Shown: positions 15,923 to 53,473, counted from the first letter of the stretch. The stretch: DNA of 64,000 nucleotides from a candidate division WOR-3 bacterium (GCA_039803745.1 JBDRZD010000001.1:2146-66145); one strand, 5' to 3'. Translations and numbers: made by a program. Notes: generated from the sequence alone by a model not told the origin.

Positions 15923-15994
15923 AGGCGGCGCCCGGAATCGAACCGAGGTAAGCGGTTTTGCAAACCGCTGCCTGAGCCACTCGGCCACGCCGCC
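15923..15994 (-). tRNA. tRNA-Cys (anticodon GCA); no encoded CCA
   Basis: Reverse complement: GGCGGCGTGGCCGAGTGGCTCAGGCAGCGGTTTGCAAAACCGCTTACCTCGGTTCGATTCCGGGCGCCGCC(T). It has a 7-bp acceptor stem, a GCGGT/ACCGC anticodon stem with loop TTGCAAA, a TTCGATT T-loop and a U discriminator. This is the only GC-rich island in its neighbourhood. Confidence 0.8.
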
Positions 15995-16022: not shown

Positions 16023-16052
16023 TTGCACTCTTTTTCAAGTAAGGTTTATAAT
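16023..16052 (+). promoter_or_regulatory. Candidate sigma70-type promoter: -35 TTGCAC, 18-bp spacer, -10 TATAAT
   Basis: TTGCAC at 16023-16028 and TATAAT at 16047-16052, about 12 nt before the ATG at 16065. It sits in the 70-bp divergent gap between the tRNA-Cys and the REC-kinase gene. Pattern match only. Confidence 0.35.
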
Positions 16053-16064
16053 ATAAAACTATTT

Positions 16065-26163: not shown

Positions 26164-26172
26164 GGGGTGTTT

Positions 26173-33925: not shown

Positions 33926-36661
33926 ATGCTTGAAATTTTAATTTTATTTTTACTTGGGTTTGGACAGAATAAAATTCAAACAAAAAATCTAAAATGGGAA
34001 ATATGTGAAACTCCACATTTTATGATTTACTTTACAAAAGGTGGGGAGCCTCTTGTTGATTTTGCAGTACCTGTTCTTGAAAATACATATACAAGGCTTT
34101 CCAATATGCTTGGTATTGATGTAAAAACAAAAGTTCCTGTTATAATTTATAATTCTCCAAATGATTTTAGGGAAACAAATATAATTCTTGACTTGATAGA
34201 AGAAGGGATTGGTGGATTTACAGAGTTTTATAAAACAAGGGTTGTTGTTCCTTTTGATGGTTCTTATAGTTCTTTTGAACATGTACTTATGCATGAGCTT
34301 GTCCATGTATTTGAATTTAAATTATTTTATACAGGTATTTATGAACTTGCTCAGGAGCCTTTCTTCTCTATTCCTCTTTATATTATGGAGGGATTCCCTG
34401 AATATGTCTCATTAGGTCTTGATCCTGAAACTGAAGGTTTTGTTAGAGACCTTATATTAAACGACCTTTTCCCATCTTTAAAGAATCTCGAATATTATGG
34501 CGGATACATTGTTTATAAACTTGGCCAAGTATTTTTCTATTTTTTATATGATACATATGGAGAAGAAAAAATAGCTGAATTTTTACACGCCTTAAAATTT
34601 AGAAAATCCGTTGATAAAGCCTCTTTGAAAGTATTTGGAATTTCCCAAGATGCTCTTTCAGAAAGATTTTCTTATTATTTAAAAAAGAAAATTTACAAAG
34701 AGATTGAAAAGTATGATTATCCTGAAGATATAGGTAAGAAGATAACAGATCATAAAAAAGAGGGTGGCTTCATGAATGTTGGTCCTGCAATTTCTTATGA
34801 TGGTTCTTATATTACTTTTCTTTCCGATAGAAAAGATTATTCCGATATTTATCTTATCTCAATATACGCTCCTGAAAAAGTAAAAAAAATTGTTTCTGGA
34901 GAAAGGGTTCCCTCACTTGAGAATCTGCACCTTTTGAGACCCGGCATATGTTTTTCACCAGATGGAAAATACTTAATTTTTACATCCCATGGCAACGGAA
35001 AGGAAATGATAAACTTTTACGATCTAAAAACAAATAAAATAATTAAATCCTATTCCTATAAAGAATTTGACGGAATTTATACACCTGATTTCTCGCCCGA
35101 CGGGAGTAAAATAGTTTTTGTTGGAATAAAAGATGGTAAAAGTGACCTTTATATTCTTAATCCATCAAATGGTAAAATACTCGAAAGAATTACAAATGAT
35201 TTCTTTGACGAAAGGGATCCTTTATTTATGGAAGAAGAGATCCTTTTTGTTTCTGATAGAACTCAAGACGGAAGCTATGGAAGTTATGCAATATTCTCAT
35301 ATTCTTTAAAGGATAAATCTATAAGGAAGATAACCCCTTATCTTGGAAACATATCTCATCCCTTCAAAATAGAGGATAGTATTTATTTGTTTGTTTATAA
35401 AGAAAAGGATGCCTCCAACATATTTGCTTATGATAAGTTAAATAACAAGTTTTACCAAATTACAAGTTTCCCAACCTGGATAAGAGAGACAGGTTATGCA
35501 AAGAAAAGTAATGACATTGTATGTAGTATTTTATGGAAGAATGGATACAATATTTTTTATATAAAAAAAGAAAAAATAATTGAAAAAAATAAATGGAAAG
35601 AAGTAGAATTAGAAGAAAAACCTGGAAAGAAAAGAAAAGGAACAGAAAATGCTGAATGGAAGGAATATTCAAATTTCTTTACAATAGATTGGCTTGGTGG
35701 AACTATTGGATACGCGCCTCAATATGGTTATTATGGTAATGTTGGTTTGCAAGCCTCTGATATTCTTGGTAATTTGCGAATTCAATTCTTTACTGACATG
35801 ACAGGAGGAGATTTAACTGTTTCAAACTGGCTTTTTGGAATTTATTATTTACCAAAGAAAATAGATTATCTCTTGGAAATATATCAATTTTTCCCTTTAT
35901 ACCCCTATGACTCAATTTATTATTCCTATGAAAGAAATTTAGGCTTTAATTTTATATCTTTAATCCCTTTAAATAAATTTTTCAGGTTTGAAATTGGAAC
36001 CGGTTTCACTTATATTGAAAGAATAATTGATAGGGACCTTTATTTTCCCATTGATAGAATGGATTATTTCATAAATTTACCCTTTTATTTTGGGACAGTA
36101 TTTGATCGTTCAACTGATTTTTATTATTTAGGAGTGCAAGATGGGGAAAGATGTTATTTAGGTTTTGAATTTGGTTTTATCCCTGAAAATTATTTGAAGT
36201 TTGTTTTTGATTCAAGAAAATATTGGAGAATTACACCCCGTTCAAATTTTGCATTTAGAATCTTATTCGCTGGAAAGCAGGATGGAGAAAGAATATTGCC
36301 ATTCTGGCTTGGTGGCCCAAATAGATTAAGGGGATATGATTTATTTGAACTTGTCTATCCCTATATATTCTTATCCAGTTTTGAATTAAGGGTGCCTTTC
36401 CTGGATAATTTAAAACTATCTTTTCCTTTACCTTTAAAAATTGGTAATATAAGAGGTATTTTCTTTTTTGATACAGGTATTGGGTTTAAGGAGATTGATA
36501 TGGCAAGTTTTAAAAAAGAAATATTTCATTCCGACTTGGGTTATGGATTTAGATGGAATATCGGATATTTTGATTTAAAATTTGATTTCGCATACAAGAT
36601 AGAAAAAAATAAATTTTTTAAGAAACCACTTATATGGATTACTTTTGGAAGGGATTTCTAA
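33926..36661 (+). CDS. Large outer-membrane chimera: N-terminal HExxH gluzincin-like domain, PD40/TolB-like beta-propeller repeats, C-terminal Omp85/surface-antigen-type beta-barrel
   Basis: 911 aa. Signal peptide. HVLMHELVHVFEF, with Glu residues ~20-30 aa downstream. PD40-like repeats (FSPDGKYLIFTSHGNGK, FSPDGSKIVFVGIKDGKSDLYILNPSNGK, LFVSDRTQDGSYG). The last ~300 aa are Gly/aromatic-rich alternating beta-strands ending ...ITFGRDF (terminal Phe). Confidence 0.55.
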   Translation: MLEILILFLLGFGQNKIQTKNLKWEICETPHFMIYFTKGGEPLVDFAVPVLENTYTRLSNMLGIDVKTKVPVIIYNSPNDFRETNIILDLIEEGIGGFTEFYKTRVVVPFDGSYSSFEHVLMHELVHVFEFKLFYTGIYELAQEPFFSIPLYIMEGFPEYVSLGLDPETEGFVRDLILNDLFPSLKNLEYYGGYIVYKLGQVFFYFLYDTYGEEKIAEFLHALKFRKSVDKASLKVFGISQDALSERFSYYLKKKIYKEIEKYDYPEDIGKKITDHKKEGGFMNVGPAISYDGSYITFLSDRKDYSDIYLISIYAPEKVKKIVSGERVPSLENLHLLRPGICFSPDGKYLIFTSHGNGKEMINFYDLKTNKIIKSYSYKEFDGIYTPDFSPDGSKIVFVGIKDGKSDLYILNPSNGKILERITNDFFDERDPLFMEEEILFVSDRTQDGSYGSYAIFSYSLKDKSIRKITPYLGNISHPFKIEDSIYLFVYKEKDASNIFAYDKLNNKFYQITSFPTWIRETGYAKKSNDIVCSILWKNGYNIFYIKKEKIIEKNKWKEVELEEKPGKKRKGTENAEWKEYSNFFTIDWLGGTIGYAPQYGYYGNVGLQASDILGNLRIQFFTDMTGGDLTVSNWLFGIYYLPKKIDYLLEIYQFFPLYPYDSIYYSYERNLGFNFISLIPLNKFFRFEIGTGFTYIERIIDRDLYFPIDRMDYFINLPFYFGTVFDRSTDFYYLGVQDGERCYLGFEFGFIPENYLKFVFDSRKYWRITPRSNFAFRILFAGKQDGERILPFWLGGPNRLRGYDLFELVYPYIFLSSFELRVPFLDNLKLSFPLPLKIGNIRGIFFFDTGIGFKEIDMASFKKEIFHSDLGYGFRWNIGYFDLKFDFAYKIEKNKFFKKPLIWITFGRDF

Positions 36662-39447: not shown

Positions 39448-39892
39448 AATAATTGCTGAAAATAAAAAGGTTTATAGAGATTATGAGATTCTTGAAGAAA
39501 TAGAAGCAGGGATAGAACTTTTAGGTGGCGAGGTTAAATCCATTAAGAATGGCGCAATATCTTTAAAAGATTCTTTTGTCAAATTTGAAGGGGGTGAAGC
39601 CTTTATTTTGAATTTATACATAGCACCTTATAAATATTCAGGAAGTATTCCTTACGACCCTGAAAGAAAAAGGAAACTTTTACTTAAAAAAGCAGAAATA
39701 AAAAGGCTCATTGGAAAAGTGAAAGAAAGAGGACTTACAATTGTTCCCTTAAAGGTTTATTTAAAAAGAAAATGGATAAAGGTTTTAATAGGTCTTGTTC
39801 GCGGAAGGAAAAAATATGAAAAAAGGCAAATAATAAAGGAAAGAGAAATAAAAAGGGAGATCGAAAGAGAACTCAAAAAAAGGTATGGTTAA
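39434..39892 (+). CDS. smpB: SsrA-binding protein
   Basis: 152 aa: IAENKKVYRDYEILEEIEAGIELLGGEVKSIK.G..SLKDSFV...GEAFILNLYIAPY and a basic C-terminal tail. Confidence 0.85.
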   Translation: MEMIKIIAENKKVYRDYEILEEIEAGIELLGGEVKSIKNGAISLKDSFVKFEGGEAFILNLYIAPYKYSGSIPYDPERKRKLLLKKAEIKRLIGKVKERGLTIVPLKVYLKRKWIKVLIGLVRGRKKYEKRQIIKEREIKREIERELKKRYG

Positions 39893-40925
39893 TTTAATTT
39901 TAATTTTTTCCCTGTTGAATCTTTTTCCACCTGAAATTTATAATTTTGGGGATAGTGTAAAAGTTGTTATTAAAAAAGATGGAGAAATTGGGGGGGATAT
40001 AGAAAAGAAGATAAGTAATAAAGATTTTATAATAGTTTTTCCTTTATCTTCTTATGAGTTTCCGGATGAATATGAAATCAAAAGTGATTATTTAAAAAAG
40101 GTTTTATTTCATAAAGAAGGAGATAATACTGTTGTAAAATTTATAATTACTGAAAATGTGAAAAAATACAGAATTAAATCCTATAAAGATAGAATAGAGA
40201 TTTTATTTTTGGGAGAAAAAATAAATAAAATTGAAAAATTTTTAGATAGAAAAATAAAAAAAATAATTATAGATCCCGGTCATGGTGGTGAAGATCCAGG
40301 AGCATGTGGAAAAGGAGGCACTTTTGAAAAAGATATAAACCTTGAAATTGCGAAAATTCTAAAGGAGATGATCGAAAAAGAACTTAAAATTGGGGTTATT
40401 TTAACCAGAGAAAAAGATACATTTATTTCTCTTTCCCAAAGGTCTCGTATAGCAAATAAAGAGAAGGGTGATATTTTTCTTTCAATCCATTGTAATGCTT
40501 CAAAAAAAATAGAATCAAAAGGGGTTGAGGTTTATTTTTTATCAGAAGCAAAGACTGACTGGGAAAGGGCAGTTGAGGCACTTGAAAATGCCTCATTAAA
40601 ATTTGAAATGCCTGAAAAAGAGGTAAAAACAGTTCTTGATGCAATACTTCTCGATCTTGCCCAAACCGAGTTTTTAAAGGAATCTCAAAAGCTTGCAGAA
40701 TTCTTACAAAAAAATCTTGTGAATAATAAAGATGAGGATAGGGGGGTTAAACAGGCAGGTTTTTATGTCCTTTATGGAGTTTATATGCCCTCTGCACTTA
40801 TTGAAGTAGGCTTTATAACAAATCCTGAGGAAGAAAAAAAATTAAAAAATAAAAATTATCAAAGGGAAATTTGTAAAAAAATAATAAGGGGGTTAAAAGA
40901 ATTTATAGAGTGGTATCAGAAGTGA
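39885..40925 (+). CDS. N-acetylmuramoyl-L-alanine amidase (Amidase_3, AmiC-like) with an N-terminal AMIN-like domain
   Basis: 346 aa with IIIDPGHGGEDPGACGKGG, FLSIHCNAS and EVGFITNPEEE. Confidence 0.8.
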   Translation: MVNLILIFSLLNLFPPEIYNFGDSVKVVIKKDGEIGGDIEKKISNKDFIIVFPLSSYEFPDEYEIKSDYLKKVLFHKEGDNTVVKFIITENVKKYRIKSYKDRIEILFLGEKINKIEKFLDRKIKKIIIDPGHGGEDPGACGKGGTFEKDINLEIAKILKEMIEKELKIGVILTREKDTFISLSQRSRIANKEKGDIFLSIHCNASKKIESKGVEVYFLSEAKTDWERAVEALENASLKFEMPEKEVKTVLDAILLDLAQTEFLKESQKLAEFLQKNLVNNKDEDRGVKQAGFYVLYGVYMPSALIEVGFITNPEEEKKLKNKNYQREICKKIIRGLKEFIEWYQK

Positions 40926-40931
40926 AAATTG

Positions 40932-40951
40932 ATGTTGCAAAAATGCAACAT
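40932..40951 (+). terminator. Possible intrinsic-terminator hairpin after the amidase gene
   Basis: atgttgca-aaaa-tgcaacat is an 8-bp perfect inverted repeat with a 4-nt loop, followed by attaattttatttttt. It is AT-rich, so the stem is weak. Confidence 0.25.
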
Positions 40952-41027: not shown

Positions 41028-43370
41028 ATGAGAAGGGTAAGGCTTAGGTTACCTGAAAATTATATTCCGGTCTTTAAAAGAGCAAAGAAAGAGTTGATGC
41101 AAACTACATCAAAAGTAATATATATTTACTCACCCCCTGCTTATGGTAAAACCACAACACTTTTAAAATTCTTTGAAGATACAGATTTTAACCCTATATT
41201 TATTCAGGTTGAGGATAAGGATAAGGATTTTGATATGTTCAAAATTTCACTTCTTCAAATCCTCTCCGAATTTTCAGGAACCTTAAAGGAAACAATTTCT
41301 TTAATAAATGGTAAGGAAACCCCTAAACTTTTCTGGGAAATTTTAAAGAATGAATACAATAATATTGCTTTACCTGAAAATACCTATTTTGTTTTTCTTG
41401 ATACTTATCATTTAATGGAAAATTTTGGGAAAATAATTAAAGAGATAATTTTACCTCTCTTTAAAAATTTACCTGCAAAACTGATTATTGAAGCAAATTT
41501 ACCCTATGAATTTGAAGGGGATGTGAAAATAATGGGTGAAGAATTTTTTACTTTATCCTGTGAAGAAATAATTGATTTATCCTCTCTTTTTGGTGAAAAA
41601 ATTAGTCCTAAAGATGCTTTTTTATTAAGGGAAAGGACAGAGGGCTGGTTATTGCCATGCATATTGTTTTTTAGAGATAAAAGAGATGTAAAAACAAAAC
41701 TTGATAGTCTTTTAGAATGGCCCGAGCTTTTAGAAGGACTTCTTGAGGGGGTTTTTAAAGATTTAGAAGAGGAGGAGAAAATAAATCTCCTTACTCTTGG
41801 ACAATTAAGAGAGTTTAATTATGGAGCGGTAAAATGGATATTAGGATATGAAAATCCTGAGAGAATAATAAATAAAATAAAGGAAAGGGGTTTTACCCTT
41901 ATTGAAGAAATTAAAGAAGGAATAATTGTTTTTCGCTTTCACCGCCTATTAAAATCCTATTTTGAAAGAAGACTTAAAAAATTTCCTCTTGGATATGATC
42001 TTTTCTTTAGAATTCATATACGTGCTCTTGATTATTTTGAAAGTATAGGAGATTTTGAGAATGCTCTTTATCATTCAATAAAAATGAGAGACCCTACAAG
42101 ATGTGGAAAATATTTAAAAAGTATAGTGATTGATCTTTTTAATGAAGGGAAAATTTCTGCAATAGAAAGTTTCTTAAAAGAAATAGAAAATGAAGGGATA
42201 TTAAAAACCCCTGAAATTTTGCTATGTGAAGGTATCTATTTAAACCTTATTGAGAAATATGATGAATCAGTTAAATTACTTAAAAAGATTTTGGAGAGTT
42301 TAAAAGAAGAGGATTATTTACTTGGTAAATACTTTCTTTTAATAGGAAGAGAGTATTTAAATGAAAAGGAGGATATCTTAATAGAAGAAGGAAATAGATT
42401 GATTGAAGAAGTAAAGAAGTATGAAGAAAAGCACGTGATGGAGCCGGATTTTGAAAAAGATCCCTGGAGAATTGTAAAAAGGAAAACTTTTAAATCCCCC
42501 GATTATTTTGTTTCTTTAATGTATGGTAGAATTTACAATTTTTTAGGTAATCAATATTATTCAAAAAAAGATATTGAAAGAGCAAGGGAATTTTATCAAA
42601 AAAGTTTATCTTTTTTAAAGAAGATAAAAGATGATAGAAGAATTCTAACTGTTATTCATAACATAGGGCTCACTTTTCTTTTTGAAGGTAAAAAGGAAGC
42701 AATTGAATATTTTATGGATGTTGCAAATTATCCTGTTCTTTTCCCCGGGAAGGCAGCATCTTTAAATAACATTGGAATATGGTATGAGATTTTTGAAGGA
42801 GATTTAGATAAAGCAGAAGAGTATTATAAAAAGGCTTTTGAGGTTAATGAAAAATTTAAACAAAGGCAGGCAATAATTTCTCAGGTTTCAAATTTAATGT
42901 ACCTTTATTTAAAGAAAAAAGATAAGGAAAAAGTACTCCAATATCTTGAAAAACTTGAAAATCTTGTATTTGCTACTAAAAATGAAAGACTCATAAATGG
43001 TTTTTATATGGGGAAAACAGAAATTTTTACCCATCTCTGCGAGTTAGAAGAGGCAGAAAAGGCTTTAAAAGAGGTAAAAGAATCTGTTACTTTAAAATTT
43101 GAGGAGCAAAAATATTACAAAATGTATGTTGAGGGAAAGTTAAGATATTTAAAAGGTGATGTTTCTGAAGCGAAGAATTTGATAGATAAATCTATTGAAT
43201 GGACATTTTTAAAAAGCGATTTTACAGATAAAATTGACAAACTTTATTATTTATATGAAATTTATAAAAAATTTGATGACCCTGATATTCAAAAAATTAG
43301 AAAGATGGCAGAAGATCTTATAAGAGAAAAAGGCTGTTTGAAAAGGTTAAGGGATTTTGATTTAGAATAA
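41028..43370 (+). CDS. MalT-like STAND NTPase with a C-terminal TPR/SUPR-like helical repeat region; no HTH or other effector domain detected
   Basis: 780 aa with a GGGGG RBS 6 nt upstream. The N-terminus is collinear with MalT: RLRLPENYIPVFKRAKKEL...VIYIYSPPAYGKTTTL (Walker A) ... FIQVEDKDKDFDMF ... YFVFLDTYHLMEN (MalT-type Walker B hhhhDxYHL). Long amphipathic helical repeats follow (GDAY..G, EAEKAL, YYKKAFEV...). It ends ...KGCLKRLRDFDLE with no LuxR-type helix-turn-helix. Confidence 0.6.
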   Translation: MRRVRLRLPENYIPVFKRAKKELMQTTSKVIYIYSPPAYGKTTTLLKFFEDTDFNPIFIQVEDKDKDFDMFKISLLQILSEFSGTLKETISLINGKETPKLFWEILKNEYNNIALPENTYFVFLDTYHLMENFGKIIKEIILPLFKNLPAKLIIEANLPYEFEGDVKIMGEEFFTLSCEEIIDLSSLFGEKISPKDAFLLRERTEGWLLPCILFFRDKRDVKTKLDSLLEWPELLEGLLEGVFKDLEEEEKINLLTLGQLREFNYGAVKWILGYENPERIINKIKERGFTLIEEIKEGIIVFRFHRLLKSYFERRLKKFPLGYDLFFRIHIRALDYFESIGDFENALYHSIKMRDPTRCGKYLKSIVIDLFNEGKISAIESFLKEIENEGILKTPEILLCEGIYLNLIEKYDESVKLLKKILESLKEEDYLLGKYFLLIGREYLNEKEDILIEEGNRLIEEVKKYEEKHVMEPDFEKDPWRIVKRKTFKSPDYFVSLMYGRIYNFLGNQYYSKKDIERAREFYQKSLSFLKKIKDDRRILTVIHNIGLTFLFEGKKEAIEYFMDVANYPVLFPGKAASLNNIGIWYEIFEGDLDKAEEYYKKAFEVNEKFKQRQAIISQVSNLMYLYLKKKDKEKVLQYLEKLENLVFATKNERLINGFYMGKTEIFTHLCELEEAEKALKEVKESVTLKFEEQKYYKMYVEGKLRYLKGDVSEAKNLIDKSIEWTFLKSDFTDKIDKLYYLYEIYKKFDDPDIQKIRKMAEDLIREKGCLKRLRDFDLE

Positions 43371-43377
43371 AAATCTT

Positions 43378-44046
43378 ATGTTAATTTATCTCTTGATATC
43401 ATTGAAAGCATTAATTTTTTGTAAAGGAGAATTTTTCATTTTTGATTCCGAGAAAAATTATTTAAAAACTCAAAATAAAAAAATATTTCTTGAAGAAAAT
43501 TTTTACAATGCCTATGAAATAAAATCCGATTTTGTTTGGATTTATATTCTCTCAAAAGAAGGGCTTTATGTGATAAACCCTGTTGATGGTAAAATTTTAT
43601 CTTTTTATAAATTTAAAAAAAATTATTCAAAATTTGCAAAAGATGACAAAGGTAATTTTTATTTTCTTGATAGTGTATCAGGGAAAATCAAGGTTATAAA
43701 CTTTACAAGAAAGGATTCTTTTTATCTTGATTTTTCTCCTTCTAAAAATGTCCTGTCCATGGAATTTATAAATGATAAGTTATATTTTCTTTATCATGAC
43801 GAAATTGTTTCTTTTGATGTTTTTGAAAAAAAAGTTCAAAAAGAAGAAAAAGGTAAATGGGATGGATTTAGAAAATGTATTCGCAAATTATTCTTATGGA
43901 AAGAAAACTGTATAAAGATTAAAAATGGTGAAGAAACTATCTTTTGTATAAACTTTAAAATAGATGACCTGATTTTTTTAAAAGATACTATTTTTATACT
44001 AACTTCTGATTCAATTCTAAAATTACCCTTTAAGGAAAATAAATGA
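43378..44046 (+). CDS. Hypothetical exported protein
   Basis: 222 aa with an N-terminal signal peptide and beta-rich composition. Its start is 8 nt after the STAND gene's stop. Confidence 0.4.
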   Translation: MLIYLLISLKALIFCKGEFFIFDSEKNYLKTQNKKIFLEENFYNAYEIKSDFVWIYILSKEGLYVINPVDGKILSFYKFKKNYSKFAKDDKGNFYFLDSVSGKIKVINFTRKDSFYLDFSPSKNVLSMEFINDKLYFLYHDEIVSFDVFEKKVQKEEKGKWDGFRKCIRKLFLWKENCIKIKNGEETIFCINFKIDDLIFLKDTIFILTSDSILKLPFKENK

Positions 44047-46994
44047 AGTTTTTATTTTTTATTCTCATTTCAAAAATAATAAGAGATACAATCTTACCAG
44101 AAATATCTTTTATAATTTTAAAAACACCTGTTATAAATAGTATTAAGGTTTATTCAAAGAAAAATATTGAATATCAGGTTAAAGGTGATACACTTTTTTT
44201 GAAGGGATTTTATGAAAGTGACACAGTTTATGTTGAATATGAAAATATAGAAATTGATGCGGTTTATAAAAAAAACGAAATTTTATTGAAAGAAGAAGAG
44301 AAGATTTTAATAAAACCTGTTGAAAGCAAAAAAGAATTTGAGGAGATTAAATTAAAGGGTAATAAAGAGGTTGGTTTTAAAATAGAAGAGGGTAATTTTT
44401 CACTTGTTCAAAGTACAAATCTTAAACTGGATGGTAAAATAGGGAATAATATTGAAGTTGAGGGTGTTTTTCAAGATGAGAACTTACCTTCAGAAGGAAC
44501 AGTCTCTCTTTCAGAGCTCGAGCAGGCTTATTTTAATATTAAATCTCCTTATTTTAAAACAAAAATCGGTGATTTCTTTCTTAGAGGAGAAAACATTGAG
44601 AGAAAAATGCTTGGAATGGAAGCCGAAGGTAAAACAAAAGGTTTTTTTTTAAAAATAGGAACAGGTTATGGAAAGGGAACATTTGAAAGTATAAAAATAG
44701 ATGTAGTTCCGGGGAAAAATGGACCTTATTTTTTAGGAATTCAAAGATATGAAAGGATAGTTCCCGGCTCTGAAAAGGTATATCTTGATAATAAACTCTT
44801 AAAAAGTGGAAAGGATGAAGATTATATAATTGATTATGAAAGGGGAATAATAGTTTTTAATCCAAAAGTGAATATTTCAAATACTTCAAATTTAAAAATA
44901 GATTTTGAAAAAATCGAAGGCGGTTTTGATAAGTATTATTTTTCAGAATGCTTTTCTCCAAATTTTAAAAATTTTAATTTAAATTTTAATTATTTTTTAG
45001 AGAAGGATTTTGAAAAGAACCCCCTTTTCTCTTTATCCGATAGTGATAAGATATTTTTAAAAACCATAGGTGATACACAAAAAATTTTATACACAAAAGG
45101 ATATGAATATGTAGGTGAAGGAAAAGGTGATTATATAAAAAAAGGGGATACACTTATATATGTAGGAGAAAAAAATGGAAATTATGTTGCTCAATTTATC
45201 TTTGTTGGTGAAAATAAAGGAGATTATATATTCAACGATTTAAAGGGCTGTTTTGAATATGTTGGAAAAGATAAAGGAGATTATATTCCCCGGAAGATTC
45301 TCTATTTACCACAAAGGAAAAATTTTTTCTCTTCTTCCATTTCCTTTAAACAGCAGAAAATAGAATTTTTTCTTTCTGAATTTGATAAGAACATTTATTC
45401 AAACTTAAATGATAGGGATAATGTTGATTTTGGAATTAAGACAAAAAATAAATTTTATTACAAAGAAAATAACTATGAAAGTGGAGTAAATTTATCTCTA
45501 AAATATTTTGGTAAAAACCTTTTTTTCCCTTTTAGAGAAAAGGAAGCAAATTATGAATTCTTGTGGAAGACAAAAGCAGAAGAAAGAAAAAGGGTTTTAC
45601 TTTCCCCTTATTTTATTTATAAAGATATCTTTAAATTACAAAATGAGATTGGATATTTAAGCACAGATTCAGGAAGTGTTAAGAGAGAAAGTTATGAATT
45701 TGAATTTTTAAAATATTTTAATACAAAAGAAACTTATGAGGAAATAAAGGGAAAAGAAAGGACATACAGGAACAGTTTTTTGATATCAAAAAAAATGAAT
45801 AAATATTTTGTGGAGTTCAAAAACATTTTTGAGAATTCAAATTTTAATTCTCTTTCAAAAGAAATTTCTTTTGGACATGATAATTTATTTTTTACCTTTT
45901 CAGAAAATTCGCTTTTTAAAAATCTATATATCCTCTCAAATTCAATAAATACTCTTTTAAGTTTTAAAAGCGTATTTTCTATAAGAGGAACTTTTAAATA
46001 CATATTTTCTAAACCTTACCTAAAAAAAATTAATAAGGATTATTTCTACAATTTTTTTTATAATCTTTTTCCTTATAAGGATTTAAGAATCAGTATAAAT
46101 GTAATTAAAAATCCGGAAATTGTTTCAGAAAAAAATATAGAATATATATTTGTTGGAGAAGGAAAAGGGAATTTCTCTTATGACTCTCTTACAAAAAGTT
46201 TTTATCCCGATGAAAACGGGAGTTATATAAAAAGAGAATTTTTTATTACAAAAGATGATAATGGCTATAAAAAAGGAATTTATTCAAAGTTAGAATTCTC
46301 GAAAGATATTTACTCAATTTTTTTAACACAGGATAGAGAGGAAAAGAAATTAAAAGAAAAAATTCTTTCAAGGAATGAAAATTATTCTCTTAATTTAAAT
46401 TTTGACCTTCCAATTTATACAAGTTTATATACTATTTATTCACAAGATGAAGATAAAGAATATTATCTTTATCCATTTAAAAGGCTTTCTTTTGAATGGA
46501 ATATAAATTTGAGGAGAGAACTCAAAGAATTTACTCCTGAAGCAGGATTTACTTATAAGTTTTCAGAGGATAAGGAACAGGAAAATGTTAAGGCAAGAAC
46601 AAGGGAATACAAATTTTTAACAGGGATAAGAAAAGGCTTTGAAAAGATTAATTTAAGGTTTTCCTTTAATTATGGAATTCAAAGAAATGAATCCCCTTTT
46701 TATTTTGGAACAAAAATAATGAAGAAGGATTATTTTGAACTTTTGCCGGGCATAAATTTTTTTATTTTTGGTACAGAAATAAGAGAAGAGATCTTTCTTA
46801 TTTTTCAAAATGTTAAAAATCCCTTTTCAAATATTTCTTTTTATGAAAAAGAAAAATGGAGGGTAGAGGAAAAGGTATCTTTATTAAAAAAAATAAGAGA
46901 GAACCTTGAAACAAGTCTTTCTTTTTTCTTAAAAATAGGGGAAAAAACAAAGACAAAGAGTTCTTTTAATTTTAATTTTATTGCCTATTTTTAA
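44043..46994 (+). CDS. Large exported repeat protein, probable outer-membrane beta-barrel
   Basis: 983 aa. Signal peptide. Four tandem ~17-aa repeats built on YVGEGKGDYI (YEYVGEGKGDYIKKGDTL / IYVGEKNGNYVAQFIF / VGENKGDYIFNDLKGCFE / YVGKDKGDYIP), with a further copy IFVGEGKGNFSY. The C-terminus is ...SFNFNFIAYF (aromatic-x-aromatic with terminal Phe). It overlaps the upstream ORF by 4 nt. Confidence 0.4.
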   Translation: MKFLFFILISKIIRDTILPEISFIILKTPVINSIKVYSKKNIEYQVKGDTLFLKGFYESDTVYVEYENIEIDAVYKKNEILLKEEEKILIKPVESKKEFEEIKLKGNKEVGFKIEEGNFSLVQSTNLKLDGKIGNNIEVEGVFQDENLPSEGTVSLSELEQAYFNIKSPYFKTKIGDFFLRGENIERKMLGMEAEGKTKGFFLKIGTGYGKGTFESIKIDVVPGKNGPYFLGIQRYERIVPGSEKVYLDNKLLKSGKDEDYIIDYERGIIVFNPKVNISNTSNLKIDFEKIEGGFDKYYFSECFSPNFKNFNLNFNYFLEKDFEKNPLFSLSDSDKIFLKTIGDTQKILYTKGYEYVGEGKGDYIKKGDTLIYVGEKNGNYVAQFIFVGENKGDYIFNDLKGCFEYVGKDKGDYIPRKILYLPQRKNFFSSSISFKQQKIEFFLSEFDKNIYSNLNDRDNVDFGIKTKNKFYYKENNYESGVNLSLKYFGKNLFFPFREKEANYEFLWKTKAEERKRVLLSPYFIYKDIFKLQNEIGYLSTDSGSVKRESYEFEFLKYFNTKETYEEIKGKERTYRNSFLISKKMNKYFVEFKNIFENSNFNSLSKEISFGHDNLFFTFSENSLFKNLYILSNSINTLLSFKSVFSIRGTFKYIFSKPYLKKINKDYFYNFFYNLFPYKDLRISINVIKNPEIVSEKNIEYIFVGEGKGNFSYDSLTKSFYPDENGSYIKREFFITKDDNGYKKGIYSKLEFSKDIYSIFLTQDREEKKLKEKILSRNENYSLNLNFDLPIYTSLYTIYSQDEDKEYYLYPFKRLSFEWNINLRRELKEFTPEAGFTYKFSEDKEQENVKARTREYKFLTGIRKGFEKINLRFSFNYGIQRNESPFYFGTKIMKKDYFELLPGINFFIFGTEIREEIFLIFQNVKNPFSNISFYEKEKWRVEEKVSLLKKIRENLETSLSFFLKIGEKTKTKSSFNFNFIAYF

Positions 46995-47053
46995 AAATTT
47001 ACATTATAATGATGAAACTTTTTTAATTCTTTTTCGTCTTATTATATAAATAA

Positions 47054-47536
47054 ATGGATAAAAGAATTGTAGAAAAAGTTTTTAATGAATATAGAAATGT
47101 TTTACTTTTCTTTGTAAATAGTTTTTTAAGGGATAAAGATAAAAGTCAGGATATTGTTCAAGAAGTTTTTATGAGACTTTATAAGGAAAAAAATGAAATA
47201 TATAATTTAAAAGGGTGGCTATTTAAAGTTGCAAAAAATTTAGTGATTGATGATCTAAGGAGGAATAAAAGGTTTGTATATTTAGATGAGGAGACTGAAA
47301 TAGAGGATGAGAATGAGAATTTAAAAAGGAATCGTTTGAAAAGTATATTAAAAAGAGAGGTAGAAAATTTGCCCAAAATTTATAAAGATTTCTTTATTCT
47401 AAGAGATGTTGAGGGATATTCCTATGAAGAAATTGCAAGAAAATTTAAAGTTCCTCTTGGGACAGTTAAAACAAGGGTTTTTAGAGCAAGAATTTATTTG
47501 AGGGAGAAGTTAAAAAATGAATTGCGAAAGATATAA
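47054..47536 (+). CDS. ECF (group IV) sigma-70 factor
   Basis: 160 aa. Region 2 (DIVQEVFMRLYKEK...WLFKVAKNLVIDDLRR) and region 4 (ILRDVEGYSYEEIARKFKVPLGTVKTRVFRAR). Confidence 0.85.
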   Translation: MDKRIVEKVFNEYRNVLLFFVNSFLRDKDKSQDIVQEVFMRLYKEKNEIYNLKGWLFKVAKNLVIDDLRRNKRFVYLDEETEIEDENENLKRNRLKSILKREVENLPKIYKDFFILRDVEGYSYEEIARKFKVPLGTVKTRVFRARIYLREKLKNELRKI

Positions 47537-47873
47537 AATTCTTATAAATAAATATATTGATAATGAGATAAAAAAAGAGGAAATGGAAAAGTTGCTTTCT
47601 CATCTTGATATCTGTGAAGATTGTAAAATATTTTTGTATGATTTGAAAAAACTTGAAGAAATGAGCATTTCTTTATTTGATTGTAAAAAAAACAAAAAAG
47701 ATTACAGAATTTTTATAAAAATATTTTTGATTTTATTTATTGTCTTTTCTTTTAAATCTTTTCCTTTATTTTTTAAAAATAAAAAAGATGAAAATAAGAT
47801 TGTTAGAGAAGAAAAGGCTAAGAAGGTTTATCTTGTAGATTTTGAGTTTAAAGAAGATTTAATTTTAAAATGA
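47517..47873 (+). CDS. Zinc-binding (zf-HC2 / ZAS-type) anti-sigma factor with one TM helix
   Basis: 118 aa: HLDICEDC (HxxxCxxC) near the N-terminus and the TM segment IFIKIFLILFIVFSF. Overlaps the ECF sigma gene by 20 nt. Confidence 0.65.
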   Translation: MNCERYKILINKYIDNEIKKEEMEKLLSHLDICEDCKIFLYDLKKLEEMSISLFDCKKNKKDYRIFIKIFLILFIVFSFKSFPLFFKNKKDENKIVREEKAKKVYLVDFEFKEDLILK

Positions 47874-48766
47874 AATTACTTTTAATTCTAACAATTACAC
47901 AATCCATTCTTTTAAAAATTCAGGAAGAAATTAAAGAAACATATAAAAAGGTTTTACCAAATGTAGTAAGAGTAGAGATAGAAAATAAAATGGGAACCGG
48001 AATTATATATGATACAATAGGTACAGTTGTTACTTCTTTACCATTTCCTCTGACAAATGAATGTGATATAATAAATTTTAAAGGAGAGATTTCTTCAGGG
48101 GAACTTTTCTATTGGGACGATATAACCCATATTGCGTTTTTGAAATCAAATTTTAATGCAAAAGAAATTGAAAAGAAAAAAAATATAGAAGTCGGGGATC
48201 TGGTTCTCATAGTAAACAATAGTTTAGATTCTGAAAGTGCTCTTTTCTGGAGTATTGTCTCAAATAAAAGAAACAAAAGGATTTACTTACAGGGGAGTCC
48301 TTCAATACCATTAACTGGTTCACCAGTATTCAGTATTGATGGTAAATTTATAGGAGTTGTTAAAGGAGAAGTTGTAGAATTTGAAAGTGAGAAATTCCCT
48401 TTTATTTTTCAAAAAAATTATAATATCATTTCAGTGACTCTCTGGGAGGAAATAGAAGAGATTAAGAAAAGGATTGGAAAAGAATTTAAAATCCCTGGTT
48501 GGATTGGAATATTGATAAAGGATGAAGGAGGTAATGTAATAATAAAAAAGGTGTTGAAGGGCTCACCTGCAGAAAAAGCAGATATTAAACCGGGTGATAT
48601 GATTCTGGAAATTGAAAGAGAAGAGATAAAGAATGTAAAAGACCTTGTTGAGAAGATGAGATTTTTTTCTCCGGGAGAAAAAATTGAAATAAAATTAAAA
48701 AGAAAAAATAAAATAGAGGTTAAAAAAGTTAAACTTGATAGAATTCCCTCTTTTATGGTATATTAA
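47870..48766 (+). CDS. DegS/HtrA-like protein: trypsin-like domain (possibly degenerate) + PDZ domain
   Basis: 298 aa with a signal peptide/TM. GSPSIPLTGSPVFSIDGKFIGVV resembles the GNSGGPL..G.VIGI serine region. A C-terminal PDZ domain follows (GWIGILIKDEGGNVIIKKVLKGSPAEKADIKPGDMILEIE). The catalytic His/Asp context is atypical. Confidence 0.5.
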   Translation: MKLLLILTITQSILLKIQEEIKETYKKVLPNVVRVEIENKMGTGIIYDTIGTVVTSLPFPLTNECDIINFKGEISSGELFYWDDITHIAFLKSNFNAKEIEKKKNIEVGDLVLIVNNSLDSESALFWSIVSNKRNKRIYLQGSPSIPLTGSPVFSIDGKFIGVVKGEVVEFESEKFPFIFQKNYNIISVTLWEEIEEIKKRIGKEFKIPGWIGILIKDEGGNVIIKKVLKGSPAEKADIKPGDMILEIEREEIKNVKDLVEKMRFFSPGEKIEIKLKRKNKIEVKKVKLDRIPSFMVY

Positions 48767-51988: not shown

Positions 51989-53473
51989 ATGATTGAGATT
52001 GACAAAAAGGGACTTGATTTAGAAAAATATAAAAAAATAGTTTATTTAAAGGAGAAAATCAAAATTTCAAAAGAAATTGAAGAAAAAATTAATAAAAATA
52101 GGGAAAAACTCCTTTTGCTTTTAAAAAAAGGTAAATTGATCTATTCAGTTAATACAGGAGTTGGTAAATTTGCTGATAGTGTTATTCCGGAAGATAAAAG
52201 ACTTATCTTCCAGGAAAATATTTTAAGAAGCCATGCAATCGGCTGGGGAGAACCTGCTCCTCCCGAAGTTGTAAGAGGCGCAATTCTTTTGAGAATAAAC
52301 TCTCTTTCACAGGGTCTTTCTGGTGTGAGTTTGGAACTTATAGAAAAGATGGTTGAATTTTTAAATAAAGATGTGATTCCCTTTGTTCCCTTAAAAGGTT
52401 CTGTTGGAGCATCAGGAGATCTTGCCCCCTTATCTTTTATAGGATTATGCATAATTGGAGAAGGATATATACTTGAAAATAAAGAAATGATGCCTGCTTA
52501 TTTTATTTTGAAAAAGAAAAATATAGAACCTTACAAACTTAAAGAAAAAGAAGGTATAGCATTAATTAACGGAACCCAATTTTCTTTATCCCTTTTAATT
52601 CATTCTTTTTTTGAATTTGAAAATTTATTTAAACTGGCAATTATTTCTTCCCTTTTTTCCTTTGTTGCTCTTGATGGAGATACTTTACCCCTTACCCCGT
52701 TTTTAGGTAAAATAAGGAATTCACGCGAGCAGATTTATATTTCAAAAGTTTTTAAAAAGGCTTTAAAAGGATATAAAAAGATTGGATTAAGAAAAAGTGT
52801 ACAGGATCCTTATACTTTAAGATGCATACCCCAGATATTTGGTACTATTTTAGAATTCAAGAATTTCATTGAAAAATTGATAGTATCTGAAATGAATGCT
52901 GTTAGCGATAATCCGATAATAAAAGATGGGAAAATAATATTTGGTGGGAATTTTCATGGACAGAGGCTCTCTGTTTCAGCAGATGTTATGGCAATACTCA
53001 TTTCTATTCTTGGTAATTTTTCTGAAAGAAGAATATTCCAATTAATGGGTGTAGAGGATATCCTTCCAAAGTTTTTAGCAAAGGAAGAAGGTTTTTCATC
53101 AGGATATATGATCGCGCATGTTATCTCAAGTGCCCTTACTTCTTTTAATAAGACATTATCTTTTCCTAACAGTGTGGATACACTGCCAACTTCTTTAAAC
53201 CAGGAGGATTTTGTTAGCATGAGTGCAAATTCTGCTCTAAGACTTTTTGAGATGCTTGAAAATTTGAAAGGTGTATTACTTGTAGAATTTATTTCCTCTT
53301 TAAGAGCAATATATATGAGAAAAATAAAACTTCCTGAATTTCTTTCAAAAATTTATGATTTTATTTTGGAAGATTTTAAGATTATTTTAGAAGACCATTT
53401 CTTATACGAAGATATTAGAAAGATTAACGAGAAAGTCCCCTTTTTAATAAATAAGTTTGATGAGGTTTTTTAA
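51989..53473 (+). CDS. MIO-dependent aromatic/histidine ammonia-lyase family enzyme (HutH-like)
   Basis: 494 aa: GSVGASGDLAPLSF (the Ala-Ser-Gly triad that forms MIO), NTGVGKFAD, SDNPII. Confidence 0.8.
   Translation: MIEIDKKGLDLEKYKKIVYLKEKIKISKEIEEKINKNREKLLLLLKKGKLIYSVNTGVGKFADSVIPEDKRLIFQENILRSHAIGWGEPAPPEVVRGAILLRINSLSQGLSGVSLELIEKMVEFLNKDVIPFVPLKGSVGASGDLAPLSFIGLCIIGEGYILENKEMMPAYFILKKKNIEPYKLKEKEGIALINGTQFSLSLLIHSFFEFENLFKLAIISSLFSFVALDGDTLPLTPFLGKIRNSREQIYISKVFKKALKGYKKIGLRKSVQDPYTLRCIPQIFGTILEFKNFIEKLIVSEMNAVSDNPIIKDGKIIFGGNFHGQRLSVSADVMAILISILGNFSERRIFQLMGVEDILPKFLAKEEGFSSGYMIAHVISSALTSFNKTLSFPNSVDTLPTSLNQEDFVSMSANSALRLFEMLENLKGVLLVEFISSLRAIYMRKIKLPEFLSKIYDFILEDFKIILEDHFLYEDIRKINEKVPFLINKFDEVF

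What the first reader, a model, noticed from the sequence alone, without database searches (positions are those of the whole stretch)
41028..48766. Candidate envelope signalling system: STAND NTPase, two exported proteins, then an ECF sigma, a ZAS anti-sigma and a DegS-like PDZ protease
All six genes are co-directional with minimal spacing; only a 59-bp AT-rich gap precedes the sigma gene. The right-hand trio reproduces the logic of RpoE-RseA-DegS, in which an anti-sigma is degraded after a PDZ protease senses a signal, but here it uses a zinc-finger anti-sigma. The left-hand trio supplies a cytoplasmic ATP-dependent switch and a giant repeat outer-membrane protein that could be the signal source or target. 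If they act together, this would be a cell-surface signalling pathway gated by a STAND ATPase rather than by a TonB-dependent transducer.
Basis: inference. Interest (0 to 1): 0.6.

Follow-up and report, generated by a model that had tools for sequence, protein, structure and literature searches.

The report
Three separate units, not one pathway
The six neighbouring genes are not one signalling system: only the last three form a conserved, self-regulated stress-sigma module, and its "protease" has lost its catalytic residues, so it more likely senses than cuts.

Summary
All six ORFs exist at the stated coordinates in a compact, 27% GC genome of candidate division WOR-3, and most domain calls hold. 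Three related lineages (L009, L144, L145) keep STAND, the 222-aa gene and the 983-aa gene intact but lack exactly the sigma/anti-sigma/PDZ segment. About 20 more distant loci with the large barrel have none of the other four families within 10 kb. The region splits into three units:
1. A MalT-clade STAND NTPase with no output domain.
2. A conserved, overlapping pair: a small exported protein plus a ~1000-aa outer-membrane beta-barrel of an uncharacterised family.
3. An ECF sigma / CHCC-zinc anti-sigma / DegS-fold PDZ operon with its own conserved ECF-type promoter (TGAAAC-N16-CGTC, 47013-47038).

The trio recurs as a three-gene module in unrelated contexts. Its PDZ protein matches DegS best by structure but has a single histidine, at the Asp position, so no canonical triad is possible. 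All seven sigma-linked homologs lack a full triad. None of 43 full-triad HtrA loci has an upstream sigma gene. The trio is a new variant of a known kind and is moderately interesting.

The parts
40932..40951 (+). Terminator-like hairpin between the amidase gene and the STAND gene; a possible transcription-unit boundary
   Evidence: Consensus scan, 8-bp stem with 3 GC pairs followed by a T-rich tail. Weak: 6 sites found against 3.5 expected in the scanned region.
41028..43370 (+). MalT-clade STAND NTPase (P-loop module plus winged helix plus TPR sensor), cytoplasmic, with no recognisable output or DNA-binding domain
   Evidence: NCBIfam MalT E=2e-24 over residues 17-428, and TPR Pfam hits. MalT structure 8bob E=2.8e-5 over residues 29-399. 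Walker A G40/K41/T42-43, Walker B D125 and the TEGW motif are invariant or nearly so, and relatives with LuxR or BTAD domains extend beyond its C-terminus. No hydrophobic segment. No PADLOC defence hit.
43378..44046 (+). Small exported beta-rich protein (p222), conserved partner of the barrel; family uncharacterised
   Evidence: No Pfam or NCBIfam hit. N-terminal hydrophobic segment 1-21. Homologs lie immediately upstream of, and overlap, the barrel gene in all Hydrothermales-type WOR-3 loci, including those without STAND.
44043..46994 (+). About 1000-aa outer-membrane beta-barrel protein (p983) of an uncharacterised family found in WOR-3, Cloacimonadota, Bacteroidota and Fibrobacter
47013..47038 (+). 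ECF-type promoter TGAAAC-N16-CGTC, ending 15 nt before the sigma ATG
   Evidence: The only match in the 64-kb window; chance expectation 0.07. Conserved as TGAAAC-N17-CGTC (L011), TGAAC-N16-CGTC (L064) and GGAAC-N17-CGTC (L067), always 10-15 nt before the sigma start codon while the surrounding spacer diverges.
47054..47536 (+). ECF (group IV) sigma factor
   Evidence: Sigma70_r2 1e-11, Sigma70_r4_2 5e-15, TIGR02937 sigma70-ECF above its cutoff. No equivalog reaches its cutoff.
47517..47873 (+). Single-pass membrane ZAS anti-sigma (CHCC ligands C3, H29, C33, C36; TM 63-87; 31-residue extracytoplasmic tail)
   Evidence: zf-HC2 2.8e-7. TM segment. The four ligands are conserved in the window, L011, L064, L067 and L143, and the tails share an aromatic-Glu element.
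47870..48766 (+). DegS-fold pseudoprotease: N-terminal hydrophobic segment, HtrA-like domain without a catalytic triad, one PDZ domain
   Evidence: PDZ_2 1.5e-16 and no trypsin Pfam hit. AF2 pLDDT 81, best Foldseek hit E. coli DegS 6ew9 at E=1e-17. Triad columns read L/H/T. The protein's only histidine, H87, sits at the Asp position.
47014..48764 (+). Presence/absence segment (promoter plus three genes), missing in related genomes
   Evidence: Replaced by about 16 bp in L009. Also absent in L144 and L145. Present at the same site in L011 and L146.

Best explanation
The interval holds three separable units that are adjacent only because of local synteny in a compact genome.

Unit 1 is a cytoplasmic MalT-clade STAND NTPase with a TPR sensor and no output domain. 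Its role is unknown.

Unit 2 is an overlapping (probably translationally coupled) pair: a small exported protein and a ~1000-aa outer-membrane beta-barrel of an uncharacterised family. I infer that the small protein is a periplasmic partner or plug of the barrel.

Unit 3 is a self-contained, auto-regulated envelope-signalling operon. An ECF sigma is held at the membrane by a sigmaW/RsiW-like single-pass CHCC zinc anti-sigma. The third gene encodes a periplasmic protein with the DegS fold and one PDZ domain that has lost the His-Asp-Ser triad.

Proposed mechanism for unit 3, all inferred. The dead DegS-like protein acts as a non-catalytic sensor or co-anti-sigma. It binds the very short extracytoplasmic tail of the anti-sigma and shields it from a site-2-type intramembrane protease. 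Competing ligands, such as exposed C-termini of unassembled outer-membrane proteins, displace it through the PDZ domain. The anti-sigma is then destroyed, and free sigma transcribes its own operon from TGAAAC-N16-CGTC.

Shown here: the gene identities, the modularity of the trio, the promoter conservation, the loss of the triad, and the independence of the trio from STAND and the barrel. Inferred: binding partners, the signal, and involvement of a site-2 protease.
For: Separability:
- The promoter plus trio is precisely absent in L009, L144 and L145, with STAND, p222 and p983 intact.
- The barrel pair occurs with ndk and NFACT upstream and no STAND, sigma or PDZ gene nearby in L002-L004 and L013.
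- Barrel and trio lie about 99 kb apart on contig Ga0209426_1000016.
- The distant STAND homolog P0116 stands alone.

Trio as a module:
- Sigma / anti-sigma / trypsin-PDZ occurs in seven loci with unrelated flanks.
- The ECF-type promoter is conserved in four of them.
- ECF sigmas usually autoregulate and are co-encoded with their regulators (PMC7826278).

Pseudoprotease:
- The fold matches DegS.
- The triad columns are incomplete in all seven sigma-linked proteins.
- The window protein has a single His, at the Asp position.
- 0 of 43 full-triad HtrA loci have an upstream sigma, against 5 of 10 degenerate ones; Fisher p about 9e-5.
- About 75 of 105 top profile hits that have the protease-like domain lack a full triad.

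Anti-sigma: the CHCC ligands and single TM match RsiW.

Lineage: a cultured WOR-3 representative is diderm (PMC12285271).
Against: - No experiment supports any binding or signalling step.
- Absence of the trio at this site in three lineages does not exclude a copy elsewhere in those incomplete MAGs.
- The loci in the 2x2 table were ascertained by similarity to this subfamily and are not all independent (the window and L011 are related).
- Half of the degenerate-triad loci have no upstream sigma.
- In the WOR-3 sub-clade a His at the Asp position and a Ser in or next to the GxSGxP loop are conserved, so residual non-canonical activity is not excluded.
- STAND lies 7 bp from p222, so co-transcription of units 1 and 2, and read-through into unit 3, remain possible.
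- No site-2 protease gene was looked for outside the window.
Confidence: 0.6

Rival explanations
1. One reading: all six genes form one cell-surface signalling pathway, in which the STAND ATPase gates, and the giant outer-membrane protein feeds, the sigma / anti-sigma / protease cascade.
For: Adjacency and a shared strand. The six-gene order is kept in Ca. Hydrothermus pacificus at about 53% identity. The barrel ends in ...AYF, the type of C-terminus that DegS-type PDZ domains recognise (PMC8103513).
Against: - The synteny at 53% identity spans more than 20 kb of unrelated housekeeping genes, so it is not specific.
- The trio is deleted or absent in three lineages that retain the left trio.
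- No co-occurrence in about 20 distant loci.
- The two units lie 99 kb apart on one contig.
- The trio has its own promoter, and no such motif precedes STAND, p222 or p983.
- The anti-sigma's cytoplasmic part is just the sigma-binding ZAS domain, with no extra module for a STAND partner.
- An aromatic C-terminus is generic for outer-membrane proteins.
Confidence: 0.05
2. The PDZ protein is still an active site-1 protease (a true DegS analogue) that uses non-canonical catalytic residues, for example the Ser of the conserved GSP motif with His87.
For: DegS is the best structural match, and the architecture is the same: anchor, protease fold and one PDZ. H87 and the GSP serine are conserved within the WOR-3 sub-clade. 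Position in the operon fits a dedicated protease.
Against: - No candidate residue set is conserved across the seven sigma-linked proteins. L067 and P0131 read G/G/N and L143 reads H/G/A.
- The His sits at the Asp102-equivalent position, which in the chymotrypsin fold lies behind, not beside, the nucleophile (my structural knowledge, not tested here).
- Close relatives no longer match the Trypsin_2 profile.
Confidence: 0.15
3. The PDZ protein is an output of the regulon rather than a regulator: a protease-dead, DegP/MucD-like periplasmic holdase or chaperone, co-expressed with sigma to cope with envelope damage.
For: HtrA-family genes occur in sigma operons without being the site-1 protease: mucD in algU-mucABCD (PMC13608001) and htrA in the M. 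tuberculosis rseA-htrA-tatB operon (PMC10027907). htrA/degP is a classic RpoE target (PMC8103513).
Against: MucD and mycobacterial HtrA are catalytically active and carry full triads. The tight link found here is specifically between triad loss and sigma adjacency. That is easier to explain by a dedicated regulatory interaction than by general quality control. The single PDZ and the ~300-aa DegS-like size differ from DegP-type cage formers.
Confidence: 0.2
4. STAND, p222 and the barrel form their own functional unit: a cytoplasmic NTPase switch controlling an outer-membrane apparatus, independent of the ECF module.
For: A 7-bp gap and a 4-bp overlap. The order is conserved in five lineages of the clade even where the trio is missing. 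In Fibrobacter the barrel homolog is likewise preceded by a cytoplasmic NTPase pair (Ras-like GTPase plus Roadblock) and a small protein.
Against: - The p222/barrel pair exists without STAND in other WOR-3 lineages.
- The distant STAND homolog is alone on another contig.
- The STAND family is confined to a narrow clade.
- Tight spacing is the genome-wide norm.
- No physical route from a cytoplasmic protein to an outer-membrane barrel is evident.
Confidence: 0.12

Closest known systems
B. subtilis sigmaW-RsiW (with PrsW and RasP)
   Same: An ECF sigma with an adjacent single-pass membrane anti-sigma of the CHCC ZAS type. The ligand spacing is nearly identical: C3/H29/C33/C36 here against C3/H30/C34/C37 in RsiW. 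The promoter form TGAAAC-N16-CGTx matches the sigmaW consensus as I recall it; I did not verify that consensus in a paper here. SigW models are among the best sigma hits.
   Different: The extracytoplasmic tail is only 31 residues. No PrsW-type protease gene is linked. A DegS-fold PDZ protein is the third gene. The host is a diderm.
E. coli RpoE-RseA-DegS-RseP and P. aeruginosa AlgU-MucA-AlgW
   Same: Envelope-stress logic: a membrane anti-sigma plus a membrane-anchored HtrA-fold protein with one PDZ domain. DegS is the top structural match. The model is described in PMC8103513.
   Different: The protein here lacks the catalytic triad. Its gene is in the sigma operon, whereas degS is unlinked in E. 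coli. The anti-sigma is ZAS-type with a minimal periplasmic tail, and there is no rseB or rseC.
M. tuberculosis sigE / rseA-htrA-tatB, and P. aeruginosa algU-mucABCD (MucD)
   Same: An HtrA-family gene encoded directly with the ECF sigma and anti-sigma genes; RseA is redox-sensitive and ZAS-like (PMC10027907; PMC13608001).
   Different: Those HtrA proteins are active proteases. Mycobacterial RseA is cytoplasmic. MucD has two PDZ domains and acts in quality control.
MalT (STAND transcription activator)
   Same: The nucleotide-binding module, winged helix and helical-repeat sensor align to MalT.
   Different: No LuxR-type DNA-binding domain or any other recognisable effector domain, so the output is unknown.
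Large outer-membrane barrels with a small partner (for example LptD-LptE) and TonB-dependent transducers of FecIRA-type cell-surface signalling
   Same: A very large predicted beta-barrel with a C-terminal Phe and a small exported protein encoded alongside it.
   Different: No sequence match to LptD, LptE, TonB-dependent receptor, plug or STN signalling domains. Structural similarity is generic, with TM-scores of 0.25 or less. The anti-sigma is not FecR-type.

Membership tests
ECF (group IV) sigma-70 factors | Only the sigma-2 and sigma-4 regions are present, in a small protein | tested here: met
   Sigma70_r2 and Sigma70_r4_2 cover the 160-aa protein; TIGR02937 scores 77.8 bits against a cutoff of 42.9.
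ECF (group IV) sigma-70 factors | Auto-regulated promoter with an AAC-type -35 and a CGT-type -10 | tested here: met
   TGAAAC-N16-CGTC at 47013-47038. It is unique in the window and conserved in four loci. Actual use of the promoter was not tested.
ZAS (zinc-binding) anti-sigma factors | C/H-x(23-26)-H-x3-C-x2-C ligand motif in an N-terminal anti-sigma domain | tested here: met
   C3, H29, C33 and C36, conserved in five loci; zf-HC2 2.8e-7.
ZAS (zinc-binding) anti-sigma factors | Zinc binding and sigma binding | not testable with these tools
   Needs biochemistry.
HtrA/DegS (S1C) serine proteases | Chymotrypsin-like protease fold followed by one or more PDZ domains | tested here: met
   AF2 model pLDDT 81; Foldseek top hits are DegS, DegQ and DegP at E about 1e-17 over about 300 columns. 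PDB phmmer match to DegQ spans residues 16-291.
HtrA/DegS (S1C) serine proteases | Catalytic His-Asp-Ser triad (TNxHV, D-[IL]-A, GNSGGP) | tested here: not met
   The columns read L/H/T. The protein's only His is at the Asp position. All seven sigma-linked homologs are incomplete.
DegS-type site-1 protease function | Cleaves the periplasmic domain of the cognate anti-sigma after its PDZ domain binds a peptide | not testable with these tools
   Needs an assay. The missing triad argues against it.
STAND NTPases (MalT clade) | P-loop NOD module with Walker A and B, plus a winged helix | tested here: met
   GKTT and hhhhD are invariant. MalT NCBIfam E=2e-24; 8bob E=2.8e-5; WHD_MalT is recorded for the identical protein P0100.
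STAND NTPases (MalT clade) | C-terminal repeat sensor domain | tested here: met
   TPR_12 1.2e-14 and weak TPR_MalT.
STAND NTPases (MalT clade) | Effector domain (LuxR HTH in MalT) | tested here: not met
   No HTH or other domain. Relatives with LuxR or BTAD extend beyond its end.
FecIRA-type cell-surface signalling | TonB-dependent transducer with plug and N-terminal signalling domain; FecR-type anti-sigma | tested here: not met
   No Plug, TonB_dep_Rec, STN or FecR hits on p983 or on the anti-sigma.
Outer-membrane beta-barrel proteins | Transmembrane antiparallel barrel with a C-terminal aromatic residue | tested here: met
Six-gene functional system (the finding) | Conserved co-occurrence of STAND and the barrel with the ECF module | tested here: not met

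The most novel reading that the evidence does not exclude
Sigma-linked, DegS-fold pseudoproteases are a widespread class of non-catalytic periplasmic PDZ sensors. They gate ZAS anti-sigma factors that have minimal extracytoplasmic tails, for example by shielding the tail from a site-2 protease until PDZ ligands displace them. The site-1 proteolytic step of the classical envelope-stress cascade would then be replaced by a binding switch derived from the protease itself.
Probability: 0.3. Interest if true: 0.6.

Novelty: new variant of a known kind. Interest (0 to 1): 0.38.

Why it matters
The proposed STAND-gated surface-signalling pathway would have been a new signalling architecture, but the comparative evidence removes it. 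What remains is useful in three ways.

1. **A new form of ECF module.** It gives a clean, portable three-gene ECF module in a barely studied thermophilic phylum, with a predicted promoter, so its regulon can be searched for in complete genomes. It also shows that an HtrA/DegS-fold protein that has lost its catalytic residues is specifically the form found next to sigma and anti-sigma genes. If that protein is a binding switch rather than an enzyme, it shows how a regulated-proteolysis cascade can evolve into, or from, a non-proteolytic one. It would also add a class of accessory regulator to ECF signalling.

2. **An unstudied barrel family.** The ~1000-aa barrel and its small partner mark an uncharacterised outer-membrane protein family, shared by the FCB-group lineages Bacteroidota and Fibrobacter and by WOR-3 and Cloacimonadota, that has no Pfam model.

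3. **A method lesson.** In compact genomes with long same-strand gene runs, adjacency alone should not be read as an operon or a system.

Tried and rejected
- **Pattern search with A1:** the 51-sequence barrel alignment was too divergent for the genome pattern search. I replaced it with the 14-sequence A3.
- **P0048 context:** the Seonamhaeicola protein is not on record, so I have no flavobacterial context from that route.
- **First tblastn run:** it returned nothing because of a file-path error. I redid it.
- **Dot-plot script:** the pure-Python version timed out. I redid it vectorised.
- **Sigma-70 promoter scan:** uninformative in this AT-rich DNA, with 50 sites against 43.9 expected.
- **Relaxed ECF motifs:** GAAAC-N15-18-CGT found only the sigma-gene site. 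GAAC-N15-18-CGTC gave one intragenic hit, against 0.30 expected. No regulon candidate emerged within the window.
- **PADLOC:** no defence-system match for STAND, p222, p983 or the PDZ protein, so I dropped the idea that STAND is an Avs-like defence gene.
- **Rfam:** only the tRNA-Cys; no structured RNA in the gaps.
- **Specific identities for p983:** I considered LptD/LptE, SprA and TonB-dependent transporter. There is no sequence-family hit, and the fold similarity is only generic.
- **ECF classification paper:** the main text does not mention PDZ, trypsin or HtrA neighbourhoods, and its supplements are not held. I could not assign the ECF group.
- **Literature on dead HtrA next to sigma:** searches for a catalytically dead HtrA next to sigma and anti-sigma genes found nothing. 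This is absence in the searchable library, not proof of novelty.
- **p222 structure:** not predicted, because its homologs come from loci and may not be submitted, and a single-sequence model would probably be uninformative.
- **SigmaW consensus:** the sequence could not be verified in the paper I opened, so it is cited from memory.

Full report
**1. What is there**

The window comes from a compact genome of about 27% GC. Public proteins identical to the window's are labelled candidate division WOR-3, and Ca. Hydrothermus pacificus is a relative at about 53% identity. The six ORFs lie exactly where the finding says:

| ORF | Coordinates | Length | Short name |
|---|---|---|---|
| 1 | 41028-43370 | 780 aa | STAND |
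| 2 | 43378-44046 | 222 aa | p222 |
| 3 | 44043-46994 | 983 aa | p983 |
| 4 | 47054-47536 | 160 aa | sigma |
| 5 | 47517-47873 | 118 aa | anti-sigma |
| 6 | 47870-48766 | 298 aa | PDZ protein |

The spacing is 7 bp, a 4-bp overlap, 59 bp, a 20-bp overlap and a 4-bp overlap. This tightness is not special. Every gene from 16023 to 56537 is on the + strand, and the next gene, an aminotransferase, starts at the base after the PDZ stop codon. Adjacency and strand therefore carry almost no information about function here.

**2. Gene identities**

- **STAND.** It has a MalT-type nucleotide-binding module: NCBIfam MalT E=2e-24 over residues 17-428 and the MalT structure 8bob at E=2.8e-5. Walker A (GKTT), Walker B (D125) and the TEGW motif are invariant or nearly so. 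It also has TPR repeats. Unlike MalT-like relatives, it has no LuxR or BTAD DNA-binding domain and no hydrophobic segment. "STAND NTPase" is correct, but its output is unknown. It matches no known defence system.
- **p222 and p983.** Neither has a Pfam or NCBIfam hit. Both start with a hydrophobic segment.
- **Sigma.** It is a standard ECF sigma.
- **Anti-sigma.** It has the CHCC zinc motif (C3, H29, C33, C36), one TM helix (63-87) and a 31-residue outside tail.
- **PDZ protein.** It has one PDZ domain and no trypsin hit in Pfam.

**3. Test of the six-gene hypothesis**

The finding says it would be refuted by a lack of conserved co-occurrence. I tested that at several evolutionary distances.

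- **About 53% identity (L001/L011).** All six genes are present, but so is everything else from yajC to tamB, more than 20 kb. This is plain synteny.
- **79% identity (L009 and the independent assembly L144) and 60% identity (L145).** The region is collinear, and STAND (780 aa), p222 and p983 (983 aa) are intact. The barrel gene, however, is followed directly by the aminotransferase. Window bases 47014-48764, which hold the promoter and the three right-hand genes, are replaced by about 16 bp. L146, with an 85%-identical PDZ protein, has the trio at the same site. The trio is therefore a presence/absence polymorphism among close lineages.
- **30-34% identity (L002/L012, L003/L004, L013).** Only the p222-like gene plus the barrel survive, still overlapping. 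They are preceded by ndk and an NFACT gene (seen in L002-L004) and followed by unrelated genes.
- **The same 403-kb contig as L003.** A relative of the PDZ protein, with sigma and ZAS anti-sigma directly upstream (L064), lies about 99 kb from the barrel pair.
- **The most distant STAND homolog (P0116).** It comes from the same two samples but sits alone on another contig.
- **About 20 further barrel loci.** Across these loci in WOR-3, Cloacimonadota, Bacteroidales and Fibrobacter, no STAND, sigma, anti-sigma or PDZ homolog lies within 10 kb.

The refutation criterion is met.

**4. The right-hand trio is a real module**

The order sigma / anti-sigma / trypsin-PDZ recurs in seven loci with unrelated flanks:
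- L008, after biotin-carboxylase genes.
- A JGI contig, after a glycosyltransferase.
- L064, L067 and the high-GC L143.
- L011 and the window itself.

The 59-bp gap before the sigma gene contains TGAAAC-N16-CGTC (47013-47038). This is the only occurrence in 64 kb, against 0.07 expected by chance. The same element sits 10-15 nt before the sigma ATG in L011 (TGAAAC-N17-CGTC), L064 (TGAAC-N16-CGTC) and L067 (GGAAC-N17-CGTC), while the surrounding spacer diverges. ECF sigmas usually autoregulate and are co-encoded with their regulators (PMC7826278). The form resembles the sigmaW-type consensus as I recall it; I could not verify that consensus in a paper here. The short distance to the ATG implies a nearly leaderless mRNA. 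No such motif precedes STAND, p222 or p983. The L009 deletion begins exactly at the -35 element.

**5. The "DegS-like protease" is DegS-like in fold but not a canonical protease**

The AlphaFold model (pLDDT 81) matches E. coli DegS best (6ew9, E=1e-17), followed by DegQ, DegP and HtrA2. In alignments anchored on canonical HtrA proteins (TNxHV, D-[IL]-A, GNSGGP), the triad columns read as follows:

| Protein | His | Asp | Ser |
|---|---|---|---|
| window | L | H | T |
| L011 | L | H | I |
| L064 | P | H | S |
| L067 | G | G | N |
| L008 | L | H | S |
| L143 | H | G | A |
| P0131 | G | G | N |

Independently of any alignment, the window protein has a single histidine, H87, in "WDDITHIAFLK" at the Asp position. 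No His can precede it, so a canonical triad is impossible. Close relatives have also lost the Trypsin_2 profile match.

Among fetched loci with at least 1.5 kb of upstream sequence, 0 of 43 full-triad HtrA genes have an ECF sigma directly upstream, against 5 of 10 degenerate ones (Fisher p about 9e-5). Two caveats apply: the loci were ascertained by similarity to this subfamily, and the window and L011 are related.

An exhaustive profile search shows that the triad-less state is common. Of 105 top representatives that have the protease-like domain, only 25 are H-D-S and a few more are H-E-S.

**6. Most likely mechanism (inferred)**

The sigma/anti-sigma pair is closest to sigmaW/RsiW. RsiW is a single-pass CHCC ZAS anti-sigma with ligands C3/H30/C34/C37, and it is controlled by regulated intramembrane proteolysis rather than by redox state (PMC5358783). 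So a zinc-finger anti-sigma in such a cascade has a precedent.

The differences here are the minimal outside tail, which carries a loosely conserved aromatic-Glu element, and the dedicated dead DegS-fold partner. I propose the following sequence:
1. The partner binds and shields the tail.
2. Its PDZ domain senses envelope ligands, such as exposed C-termini of outer-membrane proteins.
3. The partner is released, exposing the anti-sigma to a site-2-type protease.
4. Sigma is freed and amplifies itself from its own promoter.

The lineage is diderm (PMC12285271), so an outer-membrane stress signal is plausible.

Two alternatives remain. The protein could retain non-canonical activity, given the conserved H87 and GSP serine in the WOR-3 sub-clade. 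Or it could be a chaperone-like regulon output, as with mucD in algU-mucABCD and htrA in the mycobacterial rseA-htrA-tatB operon, although both of those are active proteases.

**7. The left-hand genes**

The p222/barrel pair is a clade-level unit that exists with or without STAND. STAND could be co-transcribed with it (7-bp gap), but the comparative data give no support for a functional link.

One parallel is worth noting. In Fibrobacter the barrel homolog follows a Ras-like GTPase, a Roadblock protein and a small protein with no Pfam hit, and it precedes an Omp85/POTRA gene. Those loci all come from one genus, so this is a lead and not evidence.

**8. Verdict**

The interpretation as a single STAND-gated pathway is not supported. 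The interesting residue is a conserved, auto-regulated ECF / ZAS / pseudo-DegS operon. I found no description of it in the searchable literature. It is best classed as a new variant of the known envelope-stress sigma systems.

Noticed in passing
window 26167-28239 (+): A 690-aa protein combines a family-5 extracellular solute-binding domain (SBP_bac_5, 1.2e-79) with a C-terminal TonB_C domain (1.7e-20). This is an unusual fusion of a substrate-binding protein with the TonB energy-transducing domain.
   Followed up: no
window 33926-36661 (+): A 911-aa protein has Peptidase_MA_2 and PD40 beta-propeller repeats and ends in an Omp85-type barrel. It looks like a Tricorn-like peptidase module fused to an outer-membrane barrel, and it is conserved at the same position in L001 and L144.
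   Followed up: no
window 53457-56537 (+): A TamB-family protein (1026 aa) lies 4.7 kb downstream in the same strand run, so the neighbourhood is rich in outer-membrane biogenesis genes.
   Followed up: no
L023 7966-14329 (Fibrobacter sp. UBA4375): The p983 homolog is flanked by a Ras-like small GTPase, a Roadblock/LC7 protein (an MglA/MglB-like pair), a 155-aa ORF with no Pfam hit and, downstream, an Omp85/POTRA protein. This hints that the barrel family may belong to an envelope machine controlled by a cytoplasmic NTPase.
   Followed up: partly
window 44727-44936 (p983 residues 229-298); L032-L061 and L063: A ~60-residue segment (PGSEKVYLDxxLLKxGxDYIIDYERGxIxF) is shared at 32-49% identity with very large ORFs (about 1300-1500 aa) in Bipolaricaulota (Acetothermia), Thermotogae, Neomarinimicrobiota and Margulisiibacteriota. 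It may be an undescribed domain of envelope proteins in lineages with atypical outer layers.
   Followed up: no
window 47038-47054, and the equivalent positions in L011, L064 and L067: Only 10-15 nt separate the -10-like CGTC from the sigma ATG in all four loci. This leaves no room for a Shine-Dalgarno sequence, so the sigma mRNA is probably leaderless or nearly so.
   Followed up: partly
P0157-P0305 (profile search hits): Triad-less HtrA-like PDZ proteins are numerous: about 75 of 105 top cluster representatives lack H-D-S. Many keep the Ser but not the His or Asp (patterns LSS, LRS, ISS, VSS), and many are 500-600 aa with two PDZ domains. Their genomic contexts could not be looked up.
   Followed up: partly
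L008 7599-7991: In this trio the protein in the anti-sigma position has a TM segment but no HxxxCxxC motif and no Pfam hit. So the module tolerates a non-ZAS anti-sigma.
   Followed up: no
window 20788-23517 (+): A 909-aa protein carries a TMEM260-like protein O-mannosyltransferase domain (1e-35), a family best known from eukaryotes.
   Followed up: no
window 39885-40925 (+): An AmiC-type N-acetylmuramoyl-L-alanine amidase lies just upstream of STAND in all syntenic relatives. Mycobacterial HtrA is reported to control a cell-wall amidase (PMC10027907). No link was tested here.
   Followed up: no
window 16023-17549 (+): The first gene of the 40-kb + strand run is a hybrid protein with a response-regulator receiver domain and a histidine-kinase HATPase_c domain. 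It sits next to the only tRNA in the window (tRNA-Cys, 15923-15994, - strand).
   Followed up: no
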